Shown here piece by piece: positions 5,801 to 40,002 of a DNA stretch of 64,000 nt. The translations under genes and the position numbers were made by a program. This stretch comes from Escherichia phage AV109. The DNA lies in sequence record OR352939.1. One strand, given 5' to 3'. The notes beneath the pieces are model-generated. The model saw only the letters and a list, made by a program, of their open reading frames with translations. It did no database searches and was not told where the DNA came from. The first letter of the stretch is position 1; every line of letters begins with the position of its first letter.

Positions 5801-6247
5801 TTAATAACTCTGCAGAATGAATTTAAAGTTATCAGCCAGAAGACGGTTCATTTCAGTGAGTGTTTGATATTCTGATGTATGGTTGCGAGTGAATGCCAGA
5901 GCCAATTGACCTTTACCGTAACCAGTGGTCAGTGGTTTCATGTTCTTAGCTGCAACAAAGATTACATCATATTCAATATTGTTAGTGCCCATGGTACGGG
6001 CTAGTTGCGAACGGCCTTGACGAATGTGAGAAAGAATTGCATCCAACCCTTGTTTAGAACGTTGACGTCCTACAAAGAATCGTGCTGCAACTTGACGCCA
6101 GTCGGATGAACCTTTAACAAAGAAGTAAAAACCTTCACGAGAACGAAACTCTTTAGAAACTTCAGAACCGTATTCACCATTACGAACTACTGCAACAACT
6201 TCACCGCCAACTGCCAGAAGGTCTTTACGAGTTAAATATTTGGACAT
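5801..6247 (-). CDS. ndd: Nucleoid disruption protein Ndd
   Basis: 148 aa; matches recalled T4 Ndd blocks ([61 protein letters not shown]). Confidence 0.8.
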
Positions 6248-6291
6248 GCTAATTTCCTCAATTGATTAATGTTTTTGTAATCCATGAGAGC

Positions 6292-6320
6292 ATTATACTC
6301 TGCTCTCAAGAGTTTGTACA
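6292..6320 (-). promoter_or_regulatory. Early promoter upstream of ndd (minus: TGTACA -35, N17, TATAAT -10); -10 embedded in dyad GAGAGCAGAGTATAATGCTCTC
   Basis: 35-bp element 6284..6318 is identical to 53192..53226; perfect TATAAT on minus strand. Confidence 0.5.
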
Positions 6321-6323
6321 ATT

Positions 6324-6524
6324 TTATTCGGCTATATCAGAACGTTCAAAAAGCTCTTCAACAGTTAAACATTCAGTGTCATCTTCAATAAAGAATCGAG
6401 TCCAACACGTTGGGGCGATACAGTTATGAGTTTGTCCGGCGATAGAAGCTACACGAATAAGCTGCTGACCATTATTCAGAACAAATTTTTCACCAATTTC
6501 AACATCTTTAAAAAGCTTAGCCAT
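6324..6524 (-). CDS. Hypothetical protein
   Basis: 66-aa ORF in minus-strand array. Confidence 0.4.
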   Translation of the reverse strand: MAKLFKDVEIGEKFVLNNGQQLIRVASIAGQTHNCIAPTCWTRFFIEDDTECLTVEELFERSDIAE

Positions 6525-6552
6525 TTTGTGTTCCTCATGTTTCAGTAGGACT

Positions 6553-6581
6553 ACTATACCATAATCCTACCTTGTTGTAAA
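6553..6581 (-). promoter_or_regulatory. Putative early promoter (GTTTAC -35; weak -10)
   Basis: gtaaac at 6576-6581 with conserved TAGGACTACTATA context; -10 hexamer less clear. Confidence 0.3.
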
Positions 6582-6774
6582 CAATTAAATTACATTAAAA
6601 TATGTTAAAGCCAACCATGTTCCAGTGAACGAACATGCAATGTAAAAACCAGTATCACAAATTGTTTTTAGTACAATAAGAAGTGCATTTTTCATAAGTA
6701 CCTCAATGCAATTGAAAATATTATACAAATCATAGGGATACTAAGCAACCATATTCCGATCCACATTTTAGAGC

Positions 6775-7038
6775 TCATATCTCAACTTCCACGAGTTCCA
6801 TATATCCTTTGTTGATAACCTCTTTAAGGTCTTTAGAAAGAATAACACCAAAATGGTCGTTCATATGTCCATTAACTAAACGAGTTATTTCGGCTTCAGA
6901 TGACATATAAGGCACGTCTGAGTCCCAATGAGATAGTCCCAAATGGGTATAAATCATCCCTTCGTCATCTGCAGTGTTGTACATTGAAACAAATTCGCCT
7001 GTTACTTTATGTTTTGCGTAGAAAAATTTAAATTTCAT
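6775..7038 (-). CDS. Hypothetical protein
   Basis: 87-aa ORF; RBS GAGGATAA before ATG 7038. Confidence 0.45.
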   Translation of the reverse strand: MKFKFFYAKHKVTGEFVSMYNTADDEGMIYTHLGLSHWDSDVPYMSSEAEITRLVNGHMNDHFGVILSKDLKEVINKGYMELVEVEI

Positions 7039-7064
7039 GATGTTATCCTCTTTTAGATAGGACT

Positions 7065-7094
7065 ACTATATCATAGTCCTACTTAGTTGTAAAC
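7065..7094 (-). promoter_or_regulatory. Putative early promoter (GTTTAC -35, TATAGT/ATATAG -10)
   Basis: gtaaac 7089-7094; conserved GATAGGACTACTATATCATAGTCC module. Confidence 0.4.
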
Positions 7095-7106
7095 ACTTTT
7101 ATGAAA

Positions 7107-7664
7107 TTAAAGATGAAGATACCACCCGTTGTAGTTGCTCTTGCGGACGATTTTCTTTAGGTCTTCATGGTCTCCCACGAACTTTATAGAATAAGAGAAG
7201 ACGTCAGGTGAGGTTTCTTTGACATCTAATATAATAATGCAATCTGCGACTCGATGGTTCAAGAAGGGCCCTATATTGATTCCATTACCACCAGGATAAT
7301 CACCACTGTATCCTGTGGTAACCGAAATCCATTTAGAATCTATCTGGTGCGTCTTGACTTCGACACGCAACCCGCAGTATTTAGGATGAGCTAACACGTC
7401 CCATGCATACGTGTACGGGTCTTCTACGTCTTCATTACCTTTATTAACATATCCATCTAGCCAATTTGCTACTACATACTCTGCAAAGACTGCAACCTTA
7501 CAACGTCGAACAACGTCTTCTTTTATTTGACCTGGATCTTGTTTCAACGAGTACCGAGCAGTGTCAGCAATCTTCACCTTCATTTCACTAGTCAAAAACT
7601 CATTCGACAGGATAAATGTCGGAAGATTCTTCAGCCTCAACAGCCCCAAGTTCGTCTTTACCAT
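7107..7664 (-). CDS. denB: Endonuclease IV DenB-like (position and size as T4 denB)
   Basis: Start placed at internal Met (MVKTNLGLL) with AGAGGT RBS, giving 185 aa as in T4; the track ORF 7107..7727 would overlap the upstream gene; assignment mainly by synteny between ndd and rIIB. Confidence 0.5.
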   Translation of the reverse strand: MVKTNLGLLRLKNLPTFILSNEFLTSEMKVKIADTARYSLKQDPGQIKEDVVRRCKVAVFAEYVVANWLDGYVNKGNEDVEDPYTYAWDVLAHPKYCGLRVEVKTHQIDSKWISVTTGYSGDYPGGNGINIGPFLNHRVADCIIILDVKETSPDVFSYSIKFVGDHEDLKKIVRKSNYNGWYLHL

Positions 7665-7886
7665 AGATACCTCTGATGTGTAGTTCGCCAAAATAAATGC
7701 GGTCACCTTCTTCAAGATATTCTGCATCTACAGGCGGAATTTCAATAACAACTTCGTCGCATTCTAACCAGCCGTAGTGTGCATCGCCCGGGTGTTTTAC
7801 CAATTTAGCACAATAAACTGATTTACACTTATGATGACCACGAAGATTAGCAATTTTGGATTCTGATACGTCAAATGGATGAATCA
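7600..7886 (-). CDS. Hypothetical protein
   Basis: Start at ATG 7886 (MIHPFDV) preceded by AGGGGTAATT RBS and located just after the rIIB terminator hairpin; the track start at 7923 would lie inside the terminator. Confidence 0.4.
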
Positions 7887-7900
7887 TAATTACCCCTAAA

Positions 7901-7921
7901 GAAAAAAGGGGACCGAAGTCC
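7901..7921 (-). terminator. Intrinsic terminator after rIIB (GGAC-UUCG-GUCC + U6)
   Basis: Hairpin 7910-7921 followed on minus strand by CCUUUUUUCUUU. Confidence 0.45.
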
Positions 7922-7928
7922 ACAATTA

Positions 7929-8855
7929 TTATTCTGCAAATAATTCAGTAACGTCTGAAATTACTTCGTAACGACAAGTACGCATCTTAGCATCGCCATA
8001 GTCAACTGGGATAGATACAACATCACGTGGATGAACTTTAACCTTAACAACTTTATCTGAGCTAGAACCGAAGTAACGAATATATGATTTAGCACAAACG
8101 TGGAGACCGCGAGAACAGGTTTGAGTATCATCGTCGTTAACTCGAGTACGAGGCATTGAAACAACTTTACCAGGCGAGTTATCAAATGTGCCGCTATAGC
8201 AATCTAAATAGTCTTTACGAACTACTTTCCATGCATAGAAATGCCCGTCTTCAGTGATTTCAATATCATTTGCAACCAAGAAGTCGAATAAACGTTGTAC
8301 AGCTTTTTCGCTTGGGTTTTCTAACAGGTTTTCAAGGAACGGCAGATAGAATTTAAAGTCTTCGCCTTTTTCCATGGAATCAATAATACGATTAACCAGT
8401 CCTGAACGAATCTCTATACCTTGATAAAATAAACTACCACCTTCAATAGTAACATTACCGTCAACAAACTTAGTAATAGCTTTCTTGATGTTAATAAGTT
8501 CGACAGCTTTACTAAGGTTTCCTGCGACCAAATTAGCTTTAATTTCTTCAAAATTTGCATGACTTGATGGGGTCGCATTGTATGCTACGCGTCCTTCAAT
8601 GATTGAAATAAATTTAGATGACGCATTCCATACGATTTCTGGACGATGACCTGTAATAATAGGTTCATCATTTTTCGGAACTTCTTCAACTTTAGAAGTC
8701 TCATCTTCGTCTTTAAAATTCTTAACAATCTTACGAAGAGTGTCAGTGGAAATATTGAAGTAATCAGCAATTTCCCGACGAGTCCATTGACCTGATTCAA
8801 CCAGTCTGTAAGCTTCTAACTGTTCTTCTTTAGACAAGCATTTAATATTGTACAT
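7929..8855 (-). CDS. rIIB: rIIB lysis-inhibition/membrane integrity protein
   Basis: 308 aa; size and position next to rIIA as T4 rIIB (312 aa); N-terminus MYNIKCLSKEEQLEAYRL consistent. Confidence 0.8.
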   Translation of the reverse strand: MYNIKCLSKEEQLEAYRLVESGQWTRREIADYFNISTDTLRKIVKNFKDEDETSKVEEVPKNDEPIITGHRPEIVWNASSKFISIIEGRVAYNATPSSHANFEEIKANLVAGNLSKAVELINIKKAITKFVDGNVTIEGGSLFYQGIEIRSGLVNRIIDSMEKGEDFKFYLPFLENLLENPSEKAVQRLFDFLVANDIEITEDGHFYAWKVVRKDYLDCYSGTFDNSPGKVVSMPRTRVNDDDTQTCSRGLHVCAKSYIRYFGSSSDKVVKVKVHPRDVVSIPVDYGDAKMRTCRYEVISDVTELFAE

Positions 8856-8864
8856 AATGTTTCC

Positions 8865-11078
8865 TTATTTGGCTGCTTCCACAGCCTTCATGAATTTAAC
8901 GATTTGAGCGACCTGTTCTTTTGAAAGAGTACCACGTCGTCCCATGTATTCTGACACAATATGATAATTGGTTTCGAATTCAATAACCATTTTATCATCA
9001 TTATCGTAAGCATTATCTTTAAGCTTATCGAAAATTTTAGCACACAATTCTAACTTCTTATTCAGGTCTGTATTAGTAGCACCTGCGAATCGATTCCATC
9101 CCCAACGATTATTTACTGTTGAGAGTTTTGCAAAATCTTTACTGATTTCTTTGTTTTTAGAGCTAAAATACTTACTAAGGAAGTTAAGCTCTTCATTACG
9201 AGTAATATGATTCAAATAAGGTTGAGCTCTACGACTTGGTGATACATACTCATCATAATCCGCTTTATCAATTAGCGTAATATAGTCATTAATTGATTTT
9301 TCGAACAAGCATTCTACTTCACCAAGTTTACGAACTTTCTTAGCAATCTGTGGACGAACTACAGTGAACTCTTTAATACCCGACAAATCAGCAATACGGG
9401 TCAAGAAATTGGAGTCATAGTTCAACCAACCTTTATCTGCGTCAAGACATTCAGCATTAGAACGATTACGAACTATAGCATAACCTTGGATTTCATCTGC
9501 TTCACTTGCCGGAATAAAGAGATCTTCTGATACCCAAACATCGTTTTCATTCTTAAAGAATCGATGAGCACTTGGCGATTTAGGACGAGGCTCATTAGTC
9601 CGTTTCTTGACTTCAATCCATGGCTTAACGATTTGTAAAAGCTCTGAAGTCTTGTACATGTTAATGTTGTCGCCATCAAAGATAACTTTAAGGCGTTCCA
9701 GAAGTTTCATTGCATCTTCGTCTGTAGGGTCAACGAATAGTATGCTTTTACCAAAACCGCGCGGAACTTTACCAGTTAATTTAACATCGTCTTTAGACAT
9801 TTCAATTGAATTAAGAGCTCGCATTAATGGAACGCGTCCCTTAACGTCGTCAATAACAATTTCAACATTTTTAATGTTAATGCCAATCAGACTGTTAATT
9901 GAAATAGTCGCCGATGAGCTACCACTTTCACGAATACGACGAAGACGAGGGGATTCAACTATATCGTATACTACGCCAAGATTACACCACTCAGGCCCCA
10001 TTTTAAAACGTTTGTACAACTCAGAATAAGTTAGTTGTTCTTTAGAGTATTTCAGTGATTCAATATTAGACCCGGCCTTTTCCATGTATTTACGAGCGGT
10101 ATAGCCAAGAGAATCAATTTCACGGAACACATGACGTGGGTATTTACAATCAATCCATTTCTTAGAATCTTCAGCGAACAATTTAGCATCGATTTCTGCA
10201 ACGCGTTTATGGATATTTGCTACTGTACGTTTATCAAATGACAATGCTTCACGAGACGGGGCTACATCTAGTTCACCCATAGGGAATTTAATATAAGCTG
10301 TAGTGCATCGCGTCATCATCCATGTTTGTTCTTTAATAACACTTCCGATTGGATATACAATACCACCATAAACAGCCATGATATTACCACGTTCACCCCA
10401 TGGAGCTTCCTTGGCCAAATATACATCGTCAAATTCTGGGAAGTATTTAATATCTTTAACACCACGAACTTCTGCAATATCACCTAGAGGACGCATAACA
10501 TAAGCAATTTCGGATGCGAACTTTTCAAAATCTTCTGGGTTAACAGGCACAACTACTTCAACGCCGGTCCGGTCATCAGGACCCATCTTATCTACGAAGG
10601 TTGGCTTAATCTGTGGACCCGTGTCATCTTGGTAGATTACGTAACCACGAACTTCACCGTTGTGATAAGACGTAAGGTTAAACGTATCGGTATATGCTAA
10701 TGGAGCTTTAGAGCCGAGTCCGAATCCACCAATGAAATCGTTACTCGATGTTTTAGTTGAAGCAAAATATGAGTTATAGATTCCTGGCTCTTTGTCATTA
10801 CCTCGAATGGTGAAATCACTCATACCCGGTCCAAAATCACGAACTACAAAACGTGGGTCTAAACGACCTGGAGCCTGAACAATAAACTTATCAGTGCAAC
10901 CATTAAGAATTTGCCCATCAATACAGTTTGTGATTAATTCACGTACACAAGCCAATTCTTTGTTTGTATAAAGGTCATTAGACAAAATCTTATAAACTTT
11001 GCTATTGCCTTGAATAGTAAATGCTGTGCTCTTACCGCCTGAACCAATAATCGTTTCTTTAGCCGTTTCGATAATCAT
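8865..11078 (-). CDS. rIIA: rIIA protein (GHKL-type ATPase domain at N-terminus)
   Basis: 737 aa; N-terminal ATPase-like motif (ELITNCIDGQ, DFGPGMS); adjacent to rIIB as in T4. Confidence 0.8.
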   Translation of the reverse strand: MIIETAKETIIGSGGKSTAFTIQGNSKVYKILSNDLYTNKELACVRELITNCIDGQILNGCTDKFIVQAPGRLDPRFVVRDFGPGMSDFTIRGNDKEPGIYNSYFASTKTSSNDFIGGFGLGSKAPLAYTDTFNLTSYHNGEVRGYVIYQDDTGPQIKPTFVDKMGPDDRTGVEVVVPVNPEDFEKFASEIAYVMRPLGDIAEVRGVKDIKYFPEFDDVYLAKEAPWGERGNIMAVYGGIVYPIGSVIKEQTWMMTRCTTAYIKFPMGELDVAPSREALSFDKRTVANIHKRVAEIDAKLFAEDSKKWIDCKYPRHVFREIDSLGYTARKYMEKAGSNIESLKYSKEQLTYSELYKRFKMGPEWCNLGVVYDIVESPRLRRIRESGSSSATISINSLIGINIKNVEIVIDDVKGRVPLMRALNSIEMSKDDVKLTGKVPRGFGKSILFVDPTDEDAMKLLERLKVIFDGDNINMYKTSELLQIVKPWIEVKKRTNEPRPKSPSAHRFFKNENDVWVSEDLFIPASEADEIQGYAIVRNRSNAECLDADKGWLNYDSNFLTRIADLSGIKEFTVVRPQIAKKVRKLGEVECLFEKSINDYITLIDKADYDEYVSPSRRAQPYLNHITRNEELNFLSKYFSSKNKEISKDFAKLSTVNNRWGWNRFAGATNTDLNKKLELCAKIFDKLKDNAYDNDDKMVIEFETNYHIVSEYMGRRGTLSKEQVAQIVKFMKAVEAAK

Positions 11079-11090
11079 GTTTTTCTCTCA

Positions 11091-11291
11091 TCACAAGTTA
11101 CGTTTAAAAATTTCTGCCACTTCGAGAAGTTCTTCTTTAGTAGCTGTGTCGGTTTGTATTTTATATCGAATTTCCTTAAAGCGTTCTTTAAAGGCTTCAG
11201 CTGATTCGATATCAAAAAATCTTTGGATAAGCCGGAATTCCCGGAGCACTGCTTTATCAAAAAGTTCCAAGTCCACGTTATATGTTCTCAT
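11091..11291 (-). CDS. Hypothetical protein (rIIA.1 position)
   Basis: Start placed at ATG 11291 (MRTYNV); the track start at 11321 is a GTG lying inside a 16-bp inverted repeat. Confidence 0.35.
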   Translation of the reverse strand: MRTYNVDLELFDKAVLREFRLIQRFFDIESAEAFKERFKEIRYKIQTDTATKEELLEVAEIFKRNL

Positions 11292-11311
11292 AATATTCTC
11301 TTCAGTAGATT

Positions 11312-11372
11312 CCTGAGGCACTATTACTAAAGACCATATAATCTATCATCTTATGTGTAATAGTGCCTCAGG
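11312..11372. repeat. 16-bp perfect inverted repeat (cctgaggcactattac / gtaatagtgcctcagg) with 29-nt loop
   Basis: Arms at 11312-11327 and 11357-11372 are exact reverse complements; intergenic between glycosyltransferase gene and rIIA.1. Confidence 0.7.
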
Positions 11373-11383
11373 CGATTCAGGAT

Positions 11384-12484
11384 TTACGCTGTGAAGATTT
11401 TATCCCACATCGCAACAACTGCATCTCGATTATACTTCTTCCATACTGCTTCAGCACGTTTAACTCGAGCTTCGTATGTGTCAGTGAATTCTAATACAGC
11501 TTTTGTGTAAAGCGCAACTACTTCTTTCTTAGGAGTAGAGGAATCAATTTCTACACGCACAGTATCTGGGTCGTATTCAAATGTCGCATGAGGATAATCC
11601 TTAAAAACTAACTGGATTACAGGGACACCTTTAGAGATGGCTTCAATAGAACTATTCTCTACCGTACCTGTGTCAGGACACGTATTAATAAGTGCTTTAG
11701 CTGTTTTAAGACGTTCCATGATTTCACTATGTGGAGCATCAATAATAACAGGATACTTAGCCGGTGGTGCCCATTTACTAGGACAGTATCCTGCACCATT
11801 TTCGCCTAGTGCTTTAATCGCTTCAAGAGCAACATCAGTGCGACGCATTTTAGTGTCATAACGTTGGGCACTAATAATCAAATCAGTTGCTGGGAGAACT
11901 TCTGGCTTTTCGGTCAAACAAATAACCGGGTAGTCATCATGTTCAAATAATGGATTTTCACGCCAGTAATCATAATCAATGCTATCAGTAAGAGCTGAAG
12001 TCATATGGCAATATTTACGTTCAAATTCACGGAATGCTTTAGTAGGAGCATAGCTCTTACCACCGTATTTGTGGGTAAGAATAGTTTGTTTCCAAATTTC
12101 TACAATACCGCGAGATACAGGCTCAAATGGAGTTGCCATAAAATTTCTATGAACACTGGATAAACCGGCATCTTTAATTGCGTTAACAGTTAGTTTAGTC
12201 GGTTCCATAGTAACAACAAAATCGTATTCATGGATGCCGGCTAGTTCAACAATCTTACGAGCCATAGTATAACTCATACCTAGACTGAATTTAGTCAGAT
12301 GACCAACAGGATGATGATTAACTTTCCAGTCACCAAACGTGTCATTATCAAAGCCGATATAATCAATATCAGCACCGATGGACACAAGATATTTCAACAC
12401 ATTTAAATGTACTGCTTCAAGGCCACCTTGTACACGGTCAGGATTAAATGGGACTGCACGAGATGGGATAAACATAACTTTCAT
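11384..12484 (-). CDS. GT-B fold glycosyltransferase (GT4-like); candidate DNA hydroxymethylcytosine glycosyltransferase
   Basis: 366 aa; C-terminal nucleotide-sugar binding signature resembling GT4 E-x7-E (TGTVENSSIEAISKGVPVIQ); not present at this position in T4. Confidence 0.5.
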   Translation of the reverse strand: MKVMFIPSRAVPFNPDRVQGGLEAVHLNVLKYLVSIGADIDYIGFDNDTFGDWKVNHHPVGHLTKFSLGMSYTMARKIVELAGIHEYDFVVTMEPTKLTVNAIKDAGLSSVHRNFMATPFEPVSRGIVEIWKQTILTHKYGGKSYAPTKAFREFERKYCHMTSALTDSIDYDYWRENPLFEHDDYPVICLTEKPEVLPATDLIISAQRYDTKMRRTDVALEAIKALGENGAGYCPSKWAPPAKYPVIIDAPHSEIMERLKTAKALINTCPDTGTVENSSIEAISKGVPVIQLVFKDYPHATFEYDPDTVRVEIDSSTPKKEVVALYTKAVLEFTDTYEARVKRAEAVWKKYNRDAVVAMWDKIFTA

Positions 12485-33453: not shown

Positions 33454-34002
33454 TTAACGAGCCCATTTGATAATTTCTGTAATCAAATAATTACGTTCGC
33501 TTGCATTAAATCCTATAACTTTGTTAGCACCATCATGATTAAGTAATTGATACGTTTGGATTTTGTTATGAATTGCAAACTCTTCAAAATGTGAAATGAC
33601 TGTATTAAAACCGAATGAAGACAAAGTAATAAGGTCGTCTTCAAAACTTTCAGTCATTTCGTTACGTGTTAAAATAATTGTGAACACATCATGGTTTTGG
33701 CAAAGACGAACATAATCCTGTTCATAAACGTCAAGAACCGAGTCCGCATCTTGTCGAATACGTCCATAAACCCAGTTACTAATATATCCACGGTCTAACA
33801 GATAAATCTTAGTAGGGTCTAAATAATTCAACATCGTTTCGAAACAGCCAACTTCATTTCGAGACTTAACATCGAAACGTCCATCAACTGTTCGTTTAGG
33901 GAAATCAATTTTTACATATCTTTCACTAATTTCCATTATGTCATTAATGAAAGTTGTTTTACCAGCATTATCCGGTCCATCTACTAAAATAATTTTAGCC
34001 AT
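33454..34002 (-). CDS. P-loop kinase, thymidylate/dNMP-kinase-like
   Basis: 182 aa; Walker A GPDNAGKTT and DRG motif (LLDRGYISNWVYG) as in TMPK-family kinases; sits where T4 has segA/bgt. Confidence 0.5.
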   Translation of the reverse strand: MAKIILVDGPDNAGKTTFINDIMEISERYVKIDFPKRTVDGRFDVKSRNEVGCFETMLNYLDPTKIYLLDRGYISNWVYGRIRQDADSVLDVYEQDYVRLCQNHDVFTIILTRNEMTESFEDDLITLSSFGFNTVISHFEEFAIHNKIQTYQLLNHDGANKVIGFNASERNYLITEIIKWAR

Positions 34003-34003
34003 T

Positions 34004-34903
34004 TTATTCCTCGATTACGACATCTTCATATTTAGGTATATTATATGGTGAAGAAATTAAAGCATTAAAGTAGATGAACTCACCAAGACCTGGATGAAAT
34101 ACTTCTTCAGGATTTTCGAAATATTGAATCTTCGGACGTCCTTTAAGAATTTGATAGTACTCAGTTTTAGTTGGTTTAAAAATTCGAATCAACGCTTCTT
34201 CAGGATACTTATTTCTGTCAAAGCTATTATTTGGATCGGTTATATAAAGCGGTTGACCTAATTGAATTGCGCATTCAACAACTTGTTCAAAACGATAGCA
34301 TGGGTCACTAATTCGAAATGGATGAAAAATACCATCTAGATGAATAGGAGCCAAATCACCTACAAGACGCTGCATGATGGAAGGACGTATAACTTTCTGC
34401 GTTACGATAATCTTATTACCATCTGCACCTGCGTTAACCAGCACTTCTTTTTGACGTTCATTCAACACAGTTGTTTGGATTGAACGATTAACCGACAATA
34501 TGTCGGTTTTTAAGAATTCGTCAATATAAAAACGTGGTTTATTAGGGTCTGCGGTGATATTGAAATTGAATTCTACATCAAAAGCGCCGTCATATCCAGT
34601 GATATCTGTGATTAGAAAATCACAATCATAATAAGCAATTAATGAATCAACCACAAATTCATTTTCAGACCAGAAATATTTACGAGTGTTATACGCGTTA
34701 TCTTTATACCATAATGGAACAAACTTAAATTCTGGAAAAAGACGTTCGCATTCTTTAATATCAGATGCATTACGTGGATATGTAATCACATCACCCGGAT
34801 TAGCACGGTGCAAATGAAGTTGGAAGTTGCCATCCTTAAGGATAGCATACTGTCCAGTTTCATAAGACCGCATACTCAAGATAGGTACGCGGAAAATAGC
34901 CAT
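34004..34903 (-). CDS. Hypothetical protein in the bgt slot (candidate transferase)
   Basis: 299-aa ORF tightly packed between the P-loop kinase and the gene 42 homologue; no motif recognised. Confidence 0.45.
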   Translation of the reverse strand: MAIFRVPILSMRSYETGQYAILKDGNFQLHLHRANPGDVITYPRNASDIKECERLFPEFKFVPLWYKDNAYNTRKYFWSENEFVVDSLIAYYDCDFLITDITGYDGAFDVEFNFNITADPNKPRFYIDEFLKTDILSVNRSIQTTVLNERQKEVLVNAGADGNKIIVTQKVIRPSIMQRLVGDLAPIHLDGIFHPFRISDPCYRFEQVVECAIQLGQPLYITDPNNSFDRNKYPEEALIRIFKPTKTEYYQILKGRPKIQYFENPEEVFHPGLGEFIYFNALISSPYNIPKYEDVVIEE

Positions 34904-35619
34904 TAGTCAAGGAATCCTTTAACATAATCAAAATCACGTTCAAACACATGGGCACTTACCATGGTATGAGTATAATCACCAACTTCTACACCACATTCGT
35001 TAGCGATATAATGAAGTAATTTTCCTTGGAGATAAAAATCCAACTGCATAACAACAGCACAGTTCTGGGAACGCATATGACAGTGGGTATAAAGCTTACC
35101 GTCACGAATATAATAGGTCACTGAGTCAGTACATGGATATTCAAGCGTTTCGTCTGAATCAAGCAAAGCCTGATCAGAACTTTCTAGAATTTGGAACACA
35201 ACTCTTCGGGAGTTAGGCTTCTCTTTAAGTTCTTTTAGAAGAGCTGGTAATTGAGCCGCAATGCGAGGACCATAGAAAGTGTTGAAGTTCGCCGGCAAAA
35301 CATCTGATTTTGGTTTAGAAATAAATTTAGCGACATTAGGATATGCCTTAAACGCTTCTTCTGCGTTGGTACCACCAGAAATCATAAACTTCCAGAAGTC
35401 TTCGGCATATTCATAAGAGATGCGGTTAATACGTGGGTCGGTCATTTTGAATGATGATGGAGTGTCAACAACTACTGTCATAGACCCAATTTCATTACAA
35501 CGTCCAATACGAGAATCAGTTACGAATTCCGGGTTTTCTAAAATTTCACGATTGACTGCTTTAAATGCGGCTTGAAAATCTGCGGCTTTGATATATTTCA
35601 TTGTGTTATGTTTTCCCAT
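34903..35619 (-). CDS. 42: dCMP hydroxymethylase-like (thymidylate synthase family)
   Basis: 238 aa; TS-family active-site region (YPCTDSVTYYIRDGKLY, HMRSQN); position before gene 43 as T4 gene 42. Confidence 0.65.
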   Translation of the reverse strand: MGKHNTMKYIKAADFQAAFKAVNREILENPEFVTDSRIGRCNEIGSMTVVVDTPSSFKMTDPRINRISYEYAEDFWKFMISGGTNAEEAFKAYPNVAKFISKPKSDVLPANFNTFYGPRIAAQLPALLKELKEKPNSRRVVFQILESSDQALLDSDETLEYPCTDSVTYYIRDGKLYTHCHMRSQNCAVVMQLDFYLQGKLLHYIANECGVEVGDYTHTMVSAHVFERDFDYVKGFLD

Positions 35620-35661: not shown

Positions 35662-35901
35662 TTATTTGAATTTCTTGGCAATGTTGATATAACGTAAAGC
35701 TTCAGTATCAATACTTCCAAGAACACTATGAAGAAATGCATCAGCGTAGTATTCCAATTGAACAGGTTCTTTAATCACTTTAGCCGCTTTGGTTTCAAAC
35801 AGGCCCATCAGGGCCTTTTTAAGAATTTGTTCGTTAGTGTTCAGTTTAATAGTCAAAATCTCTTCGTTAAGTTTATAATTAAAAGTTTTTCTAGAAATCA
35901 T
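35662..35901 (-). CDS. Hypothetical protein
   Basis: 79-aa ORF. Confidence 0.4.
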   Translation of the reverse strand: MISRKTFNYKLNEEILTIKLNTNEQILKKALMGLFETKAAKVIKEPVQLEYYADAFLHSVLGSIDTEALRYINIAKKFK

Positions 35902-37067
35902 TCCGGGTACCTCAAAGCGTCATCAGAGTTAGTTATATCAATAATAGATATAGAGTTTTCTGCTAACCCGTTTTTAGATAATTGACGTTTATAATATCTT
36001 TCACAATATGTACACGTCGTCCCGCAGATTTCATTAGCACAATCGAAATCTGGATGTCTGAACCACCTTTTTTCTAAAAAGCCATCTAACAAAGAGGTTT
36101 CAATATTTACTGTATGTGAAAACTCAGTTTCGTTTTCAAGAGTGAAAATGGTCTCTAAAGGCTTCCACAGTTCTAACAAATTACCTTCAAACTTTTCAGA
36201 AGCGTATGCTTCAAGAACTTTCAAAATGTAGTCTGTGCTACCTGTACGTCCTGAAACTTTGAATTGAGTGATACCAATATCATTATAAAGTTTCAAATCT
36301 TGAGGACGAACAAAACGAGTTCTCAACCAGTTAAATGGGTCTGTATCACGAGCTTTAATACAGTGCTGCATAGGATATCCGTTTAAGGATTTAGCATCAT
36401 CAGCTGTAACATCAGTACTATGGAAAATATAGCAAGAGTCACGATAGCTACAATGTGTTGTATACCCTTTACCAGCATTAGAACAGAACTCATTTACAAG
36501 AACTTCAAATATTATATTGTTCTTATTGCAAAACTCTGCTGCACGCTTCAGGAAAGAAACTGAACGGTTCTTATGAATTCCGCAGCAGACCTTTTTGATA
36601 TTATACTGGTCATGCAAGTATTTGATTTGAGTTACAGCATCGACATGTAGAATTGTTGAAACTTCAATCTCAATGTCTTTATTGACTTCACGAACAATTT
36701 CCATAACAACAGGGTTAGCGATAGTAATACGCCATACGCCTATTGACCAAAGATACTGAACATAATCCTGAATAGCTTTCTTCTTCCACTCAACTAGTTC
36801 TCTTTTTGAACCAGGATTTATCGTGTTGAGTGTATAGTTAAAGCAAATACCTAATTCGTTACAACGTTTAACGTAGTCTTCTAACATCTTTTTGTCAACG
36901 TCAGGAAGCCTAAAATCAGGTCTGGCTGCTACAAAAGCCATTTCTCTTGTAGAGCCATATACTTCGTTTATCAAGCTATTAGGATAGGTTTTATTGAGCT
37001 CTACGATTTTATCAAGAAGAGCTAAATCAAAATTCGTTCCGATTTTAAAAGTATTCATTTTTTGCAT
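35898..37067 (-). CDS. U32-peptidase-family-like protein with Cys clusters (putative Fe-S enzyme)
   Basis: 389 aa; blocks resembling the U32 family (ICFNYTLNTINP, EVLVNEFCSNAGKGYTTHCSY, FKVSGRTGS) plus C-terminal CANEICGTTCTYC; assignment from motif recall only. Confidence 0.35.
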   Translation of the reverse strand: MQKMNTFKIGTNFDLALLDKIVELNKTYPNSLINEVYGSTREMAFVAARPDFRLPDVDKKMLEDYVKRCNELGICFNYTLNTINPGSKRELVEWKKKAIQDYVQYLWSIGVWRITIANPVVMEIVREVNKDIEIEVSTILHVDAVTQIKYLHDQYNIKKVCCGIHKNRSVSFLKRAAEFCNKNNIIFEVLVNEFCSNAGKGYTTHCSYRDSCYIFHSTDVTADDAKSLNGYPMQHCIKARDTDPFNWLRTRFVRPQDLKLYNDIGITQFKVSGRTGSTDYILKVLEAYASEKFEGNLLELWKPLETIFTLENETEFSHTVNIETSLLDGFLEKRWFRHPDFDCANEICGTTCTYCERYYKRQLSKNGLAENSISIIDITNSDDALRYPE

Positions 37068-37113: not shown

Positions 37114-37515
37114 TTATAGATTCGGTTTATACGATTTAAATGTTTCGAATTCGCCTTTATTCATAAGAGCTTTGAATTCGTCAGGACGCATAGCTTTGTC
37201 GTCGATAATCCAATCATATACTGGTTTATGTGTTAGCAAATTATGGTACTTCAAGCCAATGTTTGCCAAGTTCTGAATCAGACTTGGGAGAATGTCAATT
37301 GCTATACGACCAGGACCTACTGACTTCATACCGCGAGCAGTGTAAAGCGTTATGGTATGCCCTGCATCATACAGGGCATTAATGGCAGACACCATTTCGA
37401 CGTCTGGTTTGAAGTTCACGTAATCACGATTGTTATTCCACTCTGTTATACAATCATCGACATCAAAACAAAGATTAAGCATGTTTTCTACACGGTGCAT
37501 TAGATTCGTTCCCAT
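37114..37515 (-). CDS. HAD-superfamily phosphatase (KdsC-like small sugar-phosphate phosphatase)
   Basis: 133 aa; DxD motif I (CFDVDDCIT) near N-terminus. Confidence 0.5.
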   Translation of the reverse strand: MGTNLMHRVENMLNLCFDVDDCITEWNNNRDYVNFKPDVEMVSAINALYDAGHTITLYTARGMKSVGPGRIAIDILPSLIQNLANIGLKYHNLLTHKPVYDWIIDDKAMRPDEFKALMNKGEFETFKSYKPNL

Positions 37516-39185
37516 TGATGAGTGATATCGCCACCGATTGGACGATAGGAAACACCAGTTTCTTTATCAGTTAGTACCCATTTACCAGGATTTTTTGTAA
37601 TCAGAGTAGCCGTTACAGGTTCTGCTACGTCATAACTAATAGAGCCGTCCTGAAGTACACGGCCCATGTTACGTAATTGCTTAGTCAGAAGTTCCATACC
37701 TTTATAATATGCGGCTACCGCTTTAAGTGGATTATTCTTGAAATAACCACCTAATGCAATCCAGATAATTGCCACAGCCAAATGATGATATTCATTAAAC
37801 GAACTCAGCTTTCCATATTTGTAAACTAATGGATTGATGTTAATAGTCACATTACAAGTTGTTTCATCAATAGTAAACTGTCCCCAGGTCGGATTAGCAT
37901 TGAATTCATCATAACCTGAAACAGCATAAAGCACTTTAGCTTCATCATACAATTTTGGCCCGTAAATCTTGGTTTCACCAAAATATCCACGAGGGTCGAT
38001 AAATTTGACTTCGCCGTTATCAGTAATCATAGTATTACTGAAGTTCGGGTCACCATGAATAACAGAGTACTGTCCCTGAGAACGGTTATGATAACGAATA
38101 AGGTGTTCTAAAGCTTGTTTCAGCATTGGCTTCAGACGTCCAATCTTAGTGTAGTTCACATGTGTGATTTTACCAAATGAATCAATCAACGGTTGAATGC
38201 TTTCACAACGATCAATAACTTTCGTATAGAATTCTTTAGTGAAATCACGACGAACAGTTTCAGGACTTACAAAATAAGTGTCTGTGCTGAATTTCAGTGC
38301 ATCTAAAATTGCATCAACAATTTGTGGACGAGCAAGACTTGATTTGGATTTAATATATTCAAATGCCGGCTTACCTTTAATGCGTTCCATTTCAAAGTTA
38401 TTTTCATTAACAGAAACTAACTGAGGAACTGAATCTGATTTCACTTTAAGATACCATGAAATCTCATCTTTCTGAAGAGCTCGACCTTGTTCAGTTAATG
38501 CGAATTTAGTTACAGTTTCTTCACCAATTTCAACTGCATTAAAACTACGATTAAGTTCACGAACTTCATGAGCCTTTTCAAGTTTAGGCATATCACCAAG
38601 GTCGATGATATTCATAAGCTCTGATTTATTGAATGCGCCGCTGTAAAGGAATTCTACGAAATCACGTCCTTTGCAGTATTCATGAATTTCCTCATCGGTA
38701 GAACCCATGTAGAATTCCCAGTCTTTGAACTGGTAAATTCCCACAACATTACCACCTGTTGAACCTACGTTAGTGATATTTTCACCATCGAAATTATATC
38801 GACATTCGTCACCCTTAACATAGATTGCGTTAACATTCCAAGACCATGAACCAAAATCAGGAATAATATCACACCAGTTAACAATTACGTTATGGCCGTC
38901 TAAATCTTTGTGTAATTTAGCAAGAGCATAAGCAGAACCATACGCTTCATCGACTGTACGAATAGTCACATTGAACCCTTCTTGCTCACAATAAGCTCGA
39001 ACAGTTTCAGCAAATTTTGAATGAACTACTACAATAATTTCATCTGCGCCAAGGTCAGAATAAATTGTATACAAATTGCTCAGAATAGTGTCTTGTTTAT
39101 AGTTAACAAGCACCTTAGGAATATGGTGAGTAATTGGATATAAACGAGTTGCCAATCCAGCACCAAGAATAACAGCTTTTTTCAT
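37500..39185 (-). CDS. Bifunctional sugar-1-phosphate nucleotidyltransferase / sugar kinase (APH/choline-kinase-like C-terminal domain)
   Basis: 561 aa; N-terminal NTP-transferase signature (KAVILGAGLATRLYPITHHIPKVLV); C-terminal phosphotransferase motifs (HGDPNFSNTMI, KFIDPRGYFG). Confidence 0.6.
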   Translation of the reverse strand: MKKAVILGAGLATRLYPITHHIPKVLVNYKQDTILSNLYTIYSDLGADEIIVVVHSKFAETVRAYCEQEGFNVTIRTVDEAYGSAYALAKLHKDLDGHNVIVNWCDIIPDFGSWSWNVNAIYVKGDECRYNFDGENITNVGSTGGNVVGIYQFKDWEFYMGSTDEEIHEYCKGRDFVEFLYSGAFNKSELMNIIDLGDMPKLEKAHEVRELNRSFNAVEIGEETVTKFALTEQGRALQKDEISWYLKVKSDSVPQLVSVNENNFEMERIKGKPAFEYIKSKSSLARPQIVDAILDALKFSTDTYFVSPETVRRDFTKEFYTKVIDRCESIQPLIDSFGKITHVNYTKIGRLKPMLKQALEHLIRYHNRSQGQYSVIHGDPNFSNTMITDNGEVKFIDPRGYFGETKIYGPKLYDEAKVLYAVSGYDEFNANPTWGQFTIDETTCNVTININPLVYKYGKLSSFNEYHHLAVAIIWIALGGYFKNNPLKAVAAYYKGMELLTKQLRNMGRVLQDGSISYDVAEPVTATLITKNPGKWVLTDKETGVSYRPIGGDITHQWERI

Positions 39186-39212: not shown

Positions 39213-39240
39213 TATTGTACACTATTCTAGTTAAAGCATT
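39213..39240 (-). promoter_or_regulatory. Candidate MotA-dependent middle promoter (MotA box AATGCTTTA + TACAAT -10) upstream of the nucleotidyltransferase-kinase gene
   Basis: Minus strand reads AATGCTTTAA-N12/13-TACAAT, then GAGG RBS and ATG at 39185. Confidence 0.4.
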
Positions 39241-39370
39241 CATACTTTGCTTGTAGTCCAATCATAATCCATCCAATTACAAGTGTTGGAATCATTACCG
39301 GAGCCGTTAAGCTCCAGTAGATAGTCATGACAAGCATCAATAGTAAAAGTCCTATTGTTATTGCTTTCAT
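39227..39370 (-). CDS. Small membrane protein (about 47 aa)
   Basis: ATG 39370 overlapping stop of SIS gene (ATGA), GAGG RBS; translation MKAITIGLLLLMLVMTIYWSLTAPVMIPTLVIGWIMIGLQAKYECFN; T4 has membrane protein Imm in this interval. Confidence 0.3.
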   Translation of the reverse strand: MKAITIGLLLLMLVMTIYWSLTAPVMIPTLVIGWIMIGLQAKYECFN

Positions 39371-40002
39371 TGTTCGCCTCGTAACATGGCACCTAGTGCA
39401 CCGCCTGGATGGAACTTAAGGAAATCATTAGAGGTAAATCCACGTTCAGACGAAAGGTTGATAGCAAACGTATCGATAAGCGCTAACAACAATGTAGTGG
39501 ACATTGTCGGAGCTAAAGAGTTCTCGTCAACTTCTACCGCGATACCAGTACAGAACGTATAATCAAAAAGAGCTTCGTATTCTTGTGGAATGTCAGGGTT
39601 ACAATGTAACAGAATCTGTTTAACCTGAGGACGAATCATACGAAGATGTTTAGCAACACCTATCATTTCTTCAGTCTTACCAGAACGACTAATATGAATC
39701 AACACGTCATTAGGTGCAATAAATCCTGCGTCACCATGAGAATAATGCCCAGTGTTCAAATACATGCTAGGAATACCTAGTGAAGCAAATGTCTCGGAAG
39801 CTTTAGTTGCGATATTAGCATTCTTACCAACACCTGTAATAATTACCCGGCTTTCATAATTACTAAGTCCAGGGCGTCGAAGAGTTTCTAGAATAGCATT
39901 ATAACGAGCAGGGTTTTGACTAATTACTTTGGCCATAGCGGCCAAAGAAGAAGCTTGTTTTATGATTGCGTCAATAGCGATAGTAATAGGAGTAGTTTTC
40001 AT
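39367..40002 (-). CDS. SIS-domain sugar-phosphate isomerase, KpsF/GutQ-type (arabinose-5-phosphate isomerase-like), no CBS domains
   Basis: 211 aa; ITGVGKNANIATKASETFASLGIPSMYL, HGDAGFIAPNDVLIHISRSGKTEEM, LAPTMSTTLLLALID, FHPGGALG match the KpsF/GutQ SIS-domain pattern. Confidence 0.6.
   Translation of the reverse strand: MKTTPITIAIDAIIKQASSLAAMAKVISQNPARYNAILETLRRPGLSNYESRVIITGVGKNANIATKASETFASLGIPSMYLNTGHYSHGDAGFIAPNDVLIHISRSGKTEEMIGVAKHLRMIRPQVKQILLHCNPDIPQEYEALFDYTFCTGIAVEVDENSLAPTMSTTLLLALIDTFAINLSSERGFTSNDFLKFHPGGALGAMLRGEQ

What the first reader, a model, noticed from the sequence alone, without database searches (positions are those of the whole stretch)
39367..40002. Stand-alone KpsF/GutQ-type SIS isomerase lacking CBS domains
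The sequence follows the arabinose-5-phosphate isomerase SIS domain block by block (GxGKxxxIxxKxxxTxxSxGxPS; HGDxG; SxSG; APTxSTT; HPGGALG) but stops after the SIS domain at 211 aa, whereas bacterial KpsF/KdsD carry tandem CBS domains. A minimal phage API would feed pentose phosphate into the modification pathway.
Basis: partly seen in the sequence, partly recalled or inferred. Interest (0 to 1): 0.55.

Follow-up and report, generated by a model that had tools for sequence, protein, structure and literature searches.

The report
Phage arabinose-5-phosphate isomerase, already known
This is the RB69-type phage gene for a small sugar-phosphate isomerase that very probably makes arabinose-5-phosphate for the sugar coat the phage puts on its DNA cytosines; the reading is right, but the gene, its short form and its role are already in the databases and the literature.

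Summary
It ends 7 residues after HPGGALG and has no CBS domain.

The window is a Mosigvirus (RB69-like T4-type coliphage). The protein is 98% identical to RB69 gp55.

- **Isomerase type:** it is KdsD/KpsF-type, not GmhA-type. NCBIfam kpsF gives 5e-32 and hhalign to E. coli KdsD gives 99.9% (E 6e-31), against 2% for GmhA. No GmhA structure matches at E<=10.
- **Active site:** all five KdsD active-site residues (K59, H88, E111, E152, H193) are invariant across 24 phage homologs.
- **Closest structures:** these are the known SIS-only bacterial isomerases 3ETN (B. fragilis) and 5UQI (E. coli CFT073 c3406 with A5P bound). The CBS-less form is therefore not new.
- **Context:** the gene heads the published arabinosyl-5-hydroxycytosine cluster, followed by a kinase/nucleotidyltransferase, a HAD phosphatase, a ThyA-like hydroxylase and a glycosyltransferase.

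RB69 ORF055c was proposed for this role in 2018 and again in 2026. PHROG 5670 and many GenBank records carry the name. I found no enzyme assay.

Verdict: already known, low interest.

One side lead seems worth more. The neighbouring U32-family protein, paired with a chorismate mutase in related phages, may be an oxygen-independent cytosine hydroxylase.

The parts
39367..40002 (-). 211-aa SIS-only arabinose-5-phosphate isomerase (RB69 gp55 ortholog). Predicted reaction: D-ribulose-5-P <-> D-arabinose-5-P.
   Evidence: ORF. Pfam SIS. NCBIfam kpsF/KdsD/GutQ. PHROG 5670 E 1.6e-116. 98% identical to NP_861745. PDB 3etn/5uqi/2xhz. Catalytic residues invariant.
39227..39370 (-). 47-aa very hydrophobic ORF (about two transmembrane helices). 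Its ATG overlaps the isomerase stop codon (ATGA). Function unknown.
   Evidence: Translation and sequence. A gene of the same size sits in the same slot in APCEc01 and in Kanagawavirus KLB31, where it is annotated 'contains transmembrane domain'. No Pfam or PHROG match (one search scanned the other reading frame, 39240-39392).
37500..39185 (-). 561-aa bifunctional sugar kinase / sugar-1-phosphate nucleotidyltransferase (RB69 gp52:53, analogous to HY126 AfhE). Predicted to turn Ara-5-P into Ara-1,5-P2 and Ara-1-P into UDP-arabinofuranose.
   Evidence: Pfam NTP_transferase at residues 3-99 plus weak kinase-family hits at about 344-409. NCBIfam sugar-1-P nucleotidyltransferases. PHROG 4098. Role from PMC13326640, citing He et al. 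2026.
37114..37515 (-). HAD-type sugar phosphatase (RB69 gp51, analogous to AfhF), predicted to remove the 5-phosphate. RefSeq records start it at 37500 (128 aa).
   Evidence: NCBIfam TIGR01689 EcbF-BcbF capsule biosynthesis phosphatase, E 4.3e-13. PHROG 1238. PMC13326640.
35898..37067 (-). 389-aa peptidase-U32-family protein (RB69 gp50). Its role in the pathway is unassigned.
   Evidence: Pfam Peptidase_U32 E 7.4e-11. PHROG 5757. PMC13326640 Table 1 lists 'sugar or heterocycle reductase'. See Noticed in passing.
35662..35901 (-). 79-aa ORF of unknown function (RB69 gp49). It sits where related genera carry a chorismate mutase.
   Evidence: PHROG 8601, unknown function. No CM_2 hit and no similarity to the KLB31 chorismate mutase.
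34903..35619 (-). Thymidylate-synthase homolog (RB69 gp48), the flavin- and O2-dependent dCMP 5-hydroxylase (5hodCMP synthase).
   Evidence: PHROG 160 thymidylate synthase E 1e-46. Same size and position as RB69p048. Activity shown for RB69 gp48 in PMC13326640.
34004..34903 (-). 299-aa putative DNA arabinosyltransferase (RB69 gp46:47). It is a single ORF here.
   Evidence: ORF. PHROG 3891. PMC13326640 says the RB69 46/47 split is a sequencing error.
33454..34002 (-). Nucleotide (thymidylate-kinase-like) kinase (RB69 gp45).
   Evidence: PHROG 761 E 2.4e-45. RB69p045. PMC13326640 Table 1.

Best explanation
The ORF encodes a single-domain (SIS-only) D-arabinose-5-phosphate isomerase, the Mosigvirus ortholog of RB69 gp55. 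It most likely takes D-ribulose-5-phosphate from the host pentose-phosphate pathway and converts it, by the usual aldose-ketose (ene-diol) isomerisation, into D-arabinose-5-phosphate. The residues equivalent to KdsD K59, H88, E111, E152 and H193 would carry out this chemistry. The 5-phosphate keeps the sugar in the furanose form. The downstream genes then act in order. The kinase domain of the 561-aa protein adds a 1-phosphate. The HAD phosphatase removes the 5-phosphate. The nucleotidyltransferase domain makes UDP-arabinofuranose. Phage glycosyltransferases transfer arabinose to 5-hydroxycytosine in DNA, which protects the DNA from restriction. The logic mirrors the ADP-heptose pathway (GmhA, HldE, GmhB) with a pentose. 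Shown here: family assignment, conserved active site, fold, gene context and orthology to RB69 gp55. Shown by others: arabinosyl-5hoC in RB69 DNA, the hydroxylase activity, and the AfhE/AfhF activities in phage HY126. Inferred: the isomerase activity itself, its substrate, and that it supplements the host KdsD/GutQ supply rather than being indispensable.
For: Family and fold:
- Pfam SIS E 4.8e-10.
- NCBIfam kpsF 5.2e-32, KdsD 2.1e-30, GutQ 1.9e-22; the next non-isomerase families score only 1e-6 or weaker.
- PHROG 5670 'arabinose 5-phosphate isomerase', E 1.6e-116 over the full length.
- PDB by sequence: 3etn 6.8e-25, 5uqi 1.3e-22, 2xhz 1.4e-18.
- AlphaFold2 model pLDDT 95.7. Top Foldseek hits are 2xhz (TM 0.91 on the target), 5uqi 'c3406 in complex with A5P', and 3etn.
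- hhalign to E. coli KdsD: 99.9%, E 5.7e-31, over residues 11-208.

Active site:
- K60, H89, E112, E157 and H198 are invariant in 24 homologs that are 34-76% identical to the query.
- They align with KdsD K59, H88, E111, E152 and H193.
- The Listeria SIS protein 3fxa, a weaker hit, has Thr at the Lys position and HGT instead of HGD.

Context:
- 98% identical to RB69 gp55, in the same gene order as RB69.
- The isomerase followed by a short ORF and the NTP-transferase/kinase is kept at 46% identity in a 310-kb phage contig.
- 275 phage records carry the gene.

Literature: PMC6024577 (ORF055c proposed for UDP-arabinose synthesis; a Butyrivibrio protein fuses the kinase/transferase to a SIS domain). 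PMC13326640 (arabinosyl-5hoC in RB69; gp55 proposed as Ru5P->Ara5P).
Against: - No enzyme assay of any phage member was found in the readable literature. PMC13326640 marks only the hydroxylase and some transferases as experimentally confirmed.
- The score against the curated kpsF model (111.5 bits) is below its cut-off (203.7), because the model also covers the CBS half.
- The host already has KdsD and GutQ.
- About 100 phage records carry the kinase/transferase gene without the isomerase (373 against 275 records). For example, Klebsiella phage Kpn BM7 has the same cluster without it. The enzyme is therefore not obligatory for this kind of pathway.
- PMC13326640 gives two different orders for the phosphatase and kinase steps (table versus text), so the steps after Ara-5-P are not settled for RB69.
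Confidence: 0.85

Rival explanations
1. It is a true arabinose-5-phosphate isomerase, but its main job is not DNA modification. For example, it might raise Kdo/LPS or capsule precursor supply, or perturb host pentose-phosphate flux, as a general auxiliary metabolic gene.
For: PHROG files the family under 'moron, auxiliary metabolic gene and host takeover'. The host uses A5P only for Kdo. Some phages with the rest of the cluster lack the gene.
Against: The gene is always found inside the arabinosylation cluster, directly upstream of the kinase/transferase, across genera and down to 46% identity. Phages that carry it have arabinose on their DNA (PMC13326640, PMC13390438). A lytic phage has no obvious use for LPS synthesis.
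Confidence: 0.05
2. It is a SIS isomerase with a different substrate. It could resemble the Listeria SIS-only protein 3fxa, which I recall was reported to be a glucose-6-phosphate isomerase, or it could use another ketose phosphate. The arabinose precursor would then come from the host.
For: 3fxa is a significant hit (E 6.5e-13; Foldseek rank 7). Specificity within SIS enzymes cannot be read from sequence with certainty. No assay is available.
Against: The matches to proven arabinose-5-phosphate isomerases are 6 to 12 orders of magnitude better. The Lys and the HGD Asp that 3fxa has replaced are invariant in the phage family. The sugar found on the DNA is arabinose (PMC13326640).
Confidence: 0.05
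3. It is a GmhA-type sedoheptulose-7-phosphate isomerase starting a heptose pathway.
For: The neighbouring genes (kinase/nucleotidyltransferase plus HAD phosphatase) copy the logic of the ADP-heptose pathway. The phosphatase carries the database label 'phosphoheptose isomerase' in PHROG 1238 and RefSeq.
Against: There is no hit to Pfam SIS_2 or to any NCBIfam GmhA model, although those models recognise E. coli GmhA at 404 bits. hhalign probability to GmhA is 2%. No GmhA chain in the PDB matches at E<=10. The 'phosphoheptose isomerase' label belongs to a HAD phosphatase and is a misnomer.
Confidence: 0.01
4. It is a non-catalytic sugar-phosphate-binding SIS protein, like the sensor domains of RpiR/MurR/NanR regulators.
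For: RpiR-family SIS domains appear among weaker sequence and fold hits.
Against: There is no DNA-binding domain. Those hits are about 20 orders of magnitude weaker. The complete catalytic set is invariant.
Confidence: 0.02

Closest known systems
RB69 gp55 (RB69ORF055c, NP_861745.1) and PHROG 5670 'arabinose 5-phosphate isomerase'
   Same: 207 of 211 residues identical, with the same length, gene order and neighbours. Full-length match to PHROG 5670. Already proposed as the Ru5P->Ara5P step of arabinosyl-cytosine synthesis (PMC6024577, PMC13326640).
   Different: Four substitutions only (R121K, Q125N, Y142N, T149S). In this window the neighbouring kinase/transferase and glycosyltransferase are single ORFs, whereas the RB69 reference record splits them.
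SIS-only bacterial arabinose-5-phosphate isomerases: B. fragilis (PDB 3etn) and E. coli CFT073 c3406 (PDB 5uqi, with A5P bound)
   Same: About 200 aa, a single SIS domain and no CBS pair. They are the best sequence matches among solved structures (E 6.8e-25 and 1.3e-22) and among the top fold matches. They share the GxGK, HGD, SxSG, (A/T)PT and H(P/H)GG motifs.
   Different: Only about 30% identical. The phage proteins form their own clade: 14 clusters at E<1e-30, then a gap, and one clade in the NJ tree. The bacterial enzymes serve Kdo or capsule synthesis, whereas the phage one sits in a DNA-modification operon.
E. coli KdsD / GutQ / KpsF (SIS + tandem CBS)
   Same: Same catalytic domain and active-site residues. 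Same predicted reaction.
   Different: KdsD-type enzymes are about 320-330 aa with two C-terminal CBS domains (PMC10448790). The phage protein stops at the domain junction.
GmhA - HldE - GmhB route to ADP-heptose
   Same: The same pathway logic as the phage cluster: SIS isomerase, anomeric kinase, HAD phosphatase, nucleotidyltransferase. This rests on my own knowledge of the pathway. PMC13326640 reports a structural hit of the phage-type phosphatase (DLP3 gp81, the homolog of RB69 gp51) to a heptose-1,7-bisphosphate 7-phosphatase.
   Different: The isomerase belongs to a different SIS subfamily, and the sugar is a pentose.

Membership tests
KpsF/GutQ/KdsD arabinose-5-phosphate isomerases (TIGR00393; EC 5.3.1.13) | SIS domain whose best match is to arabinose-5-phosphate isomerase models rather than to other SIS families | tested here: met
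   kpsF 5.2e-32, KdsD 2.1e-30, GutQ 1.9e-22; next families 1e-6 or weaker. hhalign to KdsD 99.9%.
KpsF/GutQ/KdsD arabinose-5-phosphate isomerases (TIGR00393; EC 5.3.1.13) | Score above the curated whole-protein cut-off of the family model | tested here: not met
   111.5 bits against a cut-off of 203.7. Only model positions 2-153 of 268 are matched, because the CBS half is absent.
KpsF/GutQ/KdsD arabinose-5-phosphate isomerases (TIGR00393; EC 5.3.1.13) | Active-site residues equivalent to E. coli KdsD K59, H88, E111, E152 and H193 (residue roles from my knowledge of the 2xhz study) | tested here: met
   K60, H89, E112, E157 and H198 align to them and are invariant in 24 homologs. The 2xhz chain shows Ala at position 59, the K59A probe mutant.
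KpsF/GutQ/KdsD arabinose-5-phosphate isomerases (TIGR00393; EC 5.3.1.13) | Tandem C-terminal CBS domains | tested here: not met
   No CBS hit. The protein ends 7 residues after HPGGALG. CBS-pair constructs 3k2v/3fna align only to the linker.
KpsF/GutQ/KdsD arabinose-5-phosphate isomerases (TIGR00393; EC 5.3.1.13) | Interconverts Ru5P and A5P | not testable with these tools
   No assay of a phage member was found in the readable literature.
SIS-only arabinose-5-phosphate isomerases (c3406 / B. fragilis type) | About 200-aa single SIS domain, closest to 5uqi/3etn in sequence and fold | tested here: met
   Model pLDDT 95.7.
SIS-only arabinose-5-phosphate isomerases (c3406 / B. fragilis type) | Descent from the same SIS-only lineage rather than independent loss of CBS | tested here: inconclusive
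   In an NJ tree of 165 SIS domains, the nearest sisters of the phage-type clade are SIS-only proteins. There is no support test, and distances to CBS-bearing forms are nearly equal (0.65-0.69).
GmhA sedoheptulose-7-phosphate isomerase (PF13580 / TIGR00441) | Match to GmhA profiles or structures | tested here: not met
   No hit. hhalign probability 2%. The models do detect E. coli GmhA.
Phage arabinosyl-5-hydroxycytosine DNA-modification cluster (RB69 gp45-55; HY126 Afh) | Lies in one operon-like block with the ThyA-like 5hodCMP synthase, a glycosyltransferase, the kinase/nucleotidyltransferase and the HAD phosphatase | tested here: met
   Gene-for-gene match to RB69p045-055.
Phage arabinosyl-5-hydroxycytosine DNA-modification cluster (RB69 gp45-55; HY126 Afh) | The virion DNA of this phage carries arabinosylated 5-hydroxycytosine | not testable with these tools
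   Shown for RB69 (PMC13326640) and for Mosigvirus NP (PMC13390438), not for this isolate.

The most novel reading that the evidence does not exclude
The phage enzyme may not be just a spare copy of host KdsD. It could be a deregulated variant, with no CBS pair and insensitive to CMP-Kdo feedback, or it could have altered specificity. Such an enzyme would let the phage draw far more pentose phosphate than the host allows. Its tight coupling to the 47-aa membrane ORF (ATGA overlap) might place UDP-arabinose synthesis at the membrane. Nothing here tests this. The family forms a separate clade with its own invariant residues, for example N61, N83, H86, H103, R106 and H119.
Probability: 0.08. Interest if true: 0.4.

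Novelty: already known. Interest (0 to 1): 0.15.

Why it matters
The gene is the entry point of the sugar branch of a phage DNA hypermodification, arabinosyl-5-hydroxycytosine, that blocks many restriction enzymes and shapes sensitivity to defence systems. The assignment matters for annotating Mosigvirus and related therapeutic phages correctly, and for rebuilding the pathway in vitro. It does not open a new question. The gene was named in the RB69 genome record, discussed in 2018 and 2026, and has its own PHROG. What remains open is modest: a direct assay, and whether the phage copy is needed when the host already makes A5P.

Tried and rejected
- **GmhA / heptose reading:** rejected.
- **3fxa-like non-API isomerase:** judged unlikely from residue differences.
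- **CBS domain encoded separately just downstream:** rejected. The 180-nt gap holds a 47-aa hydrophobic ORF.
- **C-terminal extensions in two family members (P0126, P0127):** these turned out to be fused GIY-YIG/NUMOD3 homing-endonuclease sequence, not CBS or pathway domains.
- **Origin of the phage clade (SIS-only ancestor or CBS loss):** the NJ tree gives only a weak hint toward SIS-only relatives.
- **Literature on a phage API assay:** He et al. 2026 (Nat Chem Biol) and Mahler et al. 2025 (Cell Host Microbe) are not held. Searches for 'HY126' and 'AfhE' gave nothing further. Searches for the c3406 and B. fragilis enzymology papers failed, so those facts rest on PDB entry titles and my own knowledge.
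- **Promoter/terminator scan of the cluster:** no more sites than in shuffled sequence.

Full report
**What is there.** Window 39367-40002 holds a 211-aa ORF on the minus strand. It has an ATG start, preceded by a GAGAGA ribosome-binding-like stretch. It lies 40 nt downstream of the stop of a T4-type DNA polymerase gene. The protein ends seven residues after HPGGALG. Pfam finds one SIS domain (PF01380, E 4.8e-10) and no CBS domain. PDB constructs of the CBS pair of arabinose-5-phosphate isomerases align only with the linker at residues 185-207. The protein therefore stops exactly at the SIS/CBS junction of KdsD-type enzymes.

**Where the window comes from.** The 4.3-kb stretch around the gene is 98-99.5% identical to many Mosigvirus genomes, the RB69-like T4-type coliphages. 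The protein is 207/211 identical to RB69 gp55 (NP_861745.1). The RB69 record calls gp55 'arabinose 5-phosphate isomerase, similar to ... GutQ'. Many GenBank records carry the same name. PHROG 5670 'arabinose 5-phosphate isomerase' matches over its full length at E 1.6e-116.

**Arabinose-5-phosphate isomerase or GmhA?**
- NCBIfam gives kpsF 5.2e-32, KdsD 2.1e-30 and GutQ 1.9e-22. The next families are RpiR-type regulators at 1e-6 or weaker. No GmhA model appears.
I checked them against NCBIfam, where they score 404 and 698 bits on their own equivalog models.
- A profile of 24 phage homologs then aligns to KdsD with 99.9% probability (E 5.7e-31, residues 11-208). It aligns to GmhA with 2% probability.
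- Against all PDB sequences the hits are 3etn (B. fragilis, 6.8e-25), 5uqi (E. coli CFT073 c3406, 1.3e-22), 2xhz (KdsD SIS domain, 1.4e-18) and 3fxa (Listeria, 6.5e-13). No GmhA chain appears even at E<=10.
- An AlphaFold2 model (pLDDT 95.7) finds the same four entries first by Foldseek. No GmhA is in the top 50.

**Active site.** K60, H89, E112, E157 and H198 align with KdsD K59, H88, E111, E152 and H193. Their roles are from my knowledge of the 2xhz study; the 2xhz chain indeed shows Ala at position 59. All five are invariant in 24 homologs that are 34-76% identical to the query. The serine/threonine-rich SxSGxT and APTxST stretches are largely conserved in the same set: S105, S107, G108, T110, A164, P165 and T169 are invariant, while S168 and T170 are nearly so. 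The Listeria protein 3fxa is the weakest of the four structural relatives. It has Thr for the Lys and HGT for HGD. This separates it from the phage family.

**The CBS-less form is not new.**
- The two best solved relatives, 3etn (220-residue chain) and 5uqi (198 residues, 'c3406 in complex with A5P'), are themselves single-SIS-domain proteins.
- A search of 1.84 billion representatives finds a distinct phage-type group of 14 clusters at E<1e-30. After a gap come bacterial relatives of both kinds.
- Among 148 of the listed proteins, 75 are 301-360 aa long and 42 are 250 aa or shorter.
- In an NJ tree of 165 SIS domains the phage-type proteins form one clade of 31, all without CBS. Their nearest sisters are SIS-only proteins. 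This is unsupported statistically, and distances to CBS-bearing forms are almost the same.

Whether the phage gene came from a SIS-only ancestor stays open.

**Context and mechanism.** All genes between the DNA polymerase and uvsX are on the minus strand and match RB69p045-055 one for one. In order they are:
- the isomerase;
- a 47-aa hydrophobic ORF;
- a 561-aa protein with an N-terminal sugar-1-phosphate nucleotidyltransferase domain and a kinase-like C-terminal part;
- a HAD phosphatase (TIGR01689, 4.3e-13);
- a U32-family protein;
- a 79-aa ORF;
- a thymidylate-synthase homolog;
- a glycosyltransferase;
- a nucleotide kinase.

Lee et al. 2026 (PMC13326640) showed that RB69 DNA carries mono- and poly-arabinosylated 5-hydroxycytosine. 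They showed that gp48, the ThyA homolog, makes 5-hydroxy-dCMP. On structural-similarity grounds they proposed that gp55 converts Ru5P to arabinofuranose-5-P. Citing He et al. 2026 on phage HY126, they describe AfhE (kinase plus UDP-arabinose pyrophosphorylase) and AfhF (phosphatase) as the following steps.

Thomas et al. 2018 (PMC6024577) had already singled out 'the 211 residue ORF055c'. They noted a Butyrivibrio protein that fuses the kinase/transferase to a SIS domain. PMC13390438 reports the same modification in another Mosigvirus.

The isomerase, a short ORF and the NTP-transferase/kinase keep their order at 46% identity in a 310-kb phage contig. The gene occurs in 275 phage records across Escherichia, Acinetobacter, Serratia, Yersinia, Erwinia and other phages.

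**Is it indispensable?** Probably not. The kinase/transferase gene is in 373 phage records against 275 for the isomerase. Klebsiella phage Kpn BM7 has the same cluster with no isomerase gene. The host's KdsD and GutQ already make A5P. The phage copy is best seen as a supply booster. That part is inference.

**Verdict.** The finding is already known: it is annotated in the genome record, has its own PHROG, and was discussed in two papers. The only gap is a direct assay, which I could not find. He et al. 2026 and Mahler et al. 2025 are not held.

**Side lead: the U32-family protein (35898-37067).** Its pathway role is unassigned; Table 1 of PMC13326640 lists 'sugar or heterocycle reductase'.
- The U32 family contains the prephenate-dependent, oxygen-independent hydroxylases RlhA (5-hydroxycytidine in 23S rRNA, PMC5727448), TrhP (5-hydroxyuridine in tRNA, PMC6599085) and UbiU/UbiV (PMC10990095).
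- The phage protein is in 221 phage records, all at least 80% identical. Every named host group is Enterobacterales or Shewanella, which are facultative anaerobes. Acinetobacter is not among the ten most frequent groups named; seven rarer groups are not named in the output. Yet 57 Acinetobacter phage records carry the isomerase and the kinase/transferase.
- In Kanagawavirus KLB31 the 79-aa gene between the U32 gene and the ThyA homolog is a genuine chorismate mutase (Pfam CM_2, 38.5 bits, E 1.3e-9). Chorismate mutase is the enzyme that makes prephenate.
- That chorismate mutase recurs in 42 phage records, in every row shown at the same place beside the thymidylate-synthase homolog, the U32 peptidase or both.
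- In this window the slot holds an unrelated 79-aa ORF.
- Aligned with E. coli UbiU, UbiV, RlhA and TrhP, the phage protein is 17-24% identical. It keeps two of the aligned cluster cysteines, has others displaced, and has an extra C-terminal CX5CX3CX2C motif.

A reasonable hypothesis follows. The protein may give an anaerobic route to 5-hydroxycytosine, alongside the O2- and flavin-dependent ThyA homolog. I found no mention of this in the searchable literature. It may be covered in the two papers I could not read.

Noticed in passing
window 35898-37067 (-); L005 5983-7394; L006 8675-10077: The U32-family protein of the cluster (RB69 gp50) has no assigned role. It belongs to the family of prephenate-dependent, O2-independent hydroxylases (RlhA makes 5-hydroxycytidine; also TrhP and UbiU/V). 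It is found in 221 phage records; all named host groups are Enterobacterales or Shewanella, and Acinetobacter is not among them. In 42 records of related genera a true chorismate mutase (Pfam CM_2, E 1.3e-9) lies next to it and the ThyA-like hydroxylase. This suggests an anaerobic route to 5-hydroxycytosine. Identity to the E. coli U32 hydroxylases is 17-24%, with the cluster cysteines only partly conserved.
   Followed up: partly
window 35662-35901 (-): This 79-aa ORF (RB69 gp49, PHROG 8601) occupies exactly the slot, and has the same length, as the 79-aa chorismate mutase of Kanagawavirus and Marfavirus phages. It shows no sequence similarity to that enzyme (BLASTP E 6.9) and has no CM_2 hit. 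It could be a replacement or an extreme divergence; I did not resolve which.
   Followed up: partly
window 39227-39370 (-): A 47-aa, very hydrophobic ORF (MKAITIGLLLLMLVMTIYWSLTAPVMIPTLVIGWIMIGLQAKYECFN) starts with an ATG that overlaps the isomerase stop codon (ATGA). A gene of the same size sits in the same slot in APCEc01 and in KLB31, where it is annotated as transmembrane. A small membrane protein inside a nucleotide-sugar operon is unexplained. In a distant 310-kb phage the slot holds a 92-aa soluble CxxC protein instead.
   Followed up: partly
window 37114-37515 (-): The HAD phosphatase (NCBIfam EcbF-BcbF capsule biosynthesis phosphatase, E 4.3e-13) carries the label 'phosphoheptose isomerase' in PHROG 1238 and, through it, in RefSeq records including RB69p051. 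It is called 'polynucleotide kinase' in KLB31. Both are annotation errors that propagate.
   Followed up: yes
window 37500-39185 (-) and 34004-34903 (-): The kinase/nucleotidyltransferase (561 aa) and the glycosyltransferase (299 aa) are single intact ORFs here. The RB69 reference record splits each in two (RB69p052/053 and p046/047). This agrees with the statement in PMC13326640 that the RB69 splits are sequencing errors.
   Followed up: yes
proteins P0126 and P0127 (metagenomic relatives, about 50% identical): Two members of the phage isomerase family carry C-terminal extensions of 85 and 175 aa. These are GIY-YIG (SegE-like)/NUMOD3 homing-endonuclease sequence fused in frame to the end of the isomerase. 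This is probably a seg-type endonuclease inserted directly downstream, either read through or truly fused.
   Followed up: partly
L006 (Klebsiella phage Kpn BM7, Marfavirus), 6001-11665: This phage has the same cluster (kinase/transferase, HAD phosphatase, nucleotide kinase, U32, chorismate mutase, ThyA homolog, glycosyltransferase) but no isomerase gene. Its kinase/transferase is only 43% identical. These phages either rely on host A5P or attach a different sugar.
   Followed up: no
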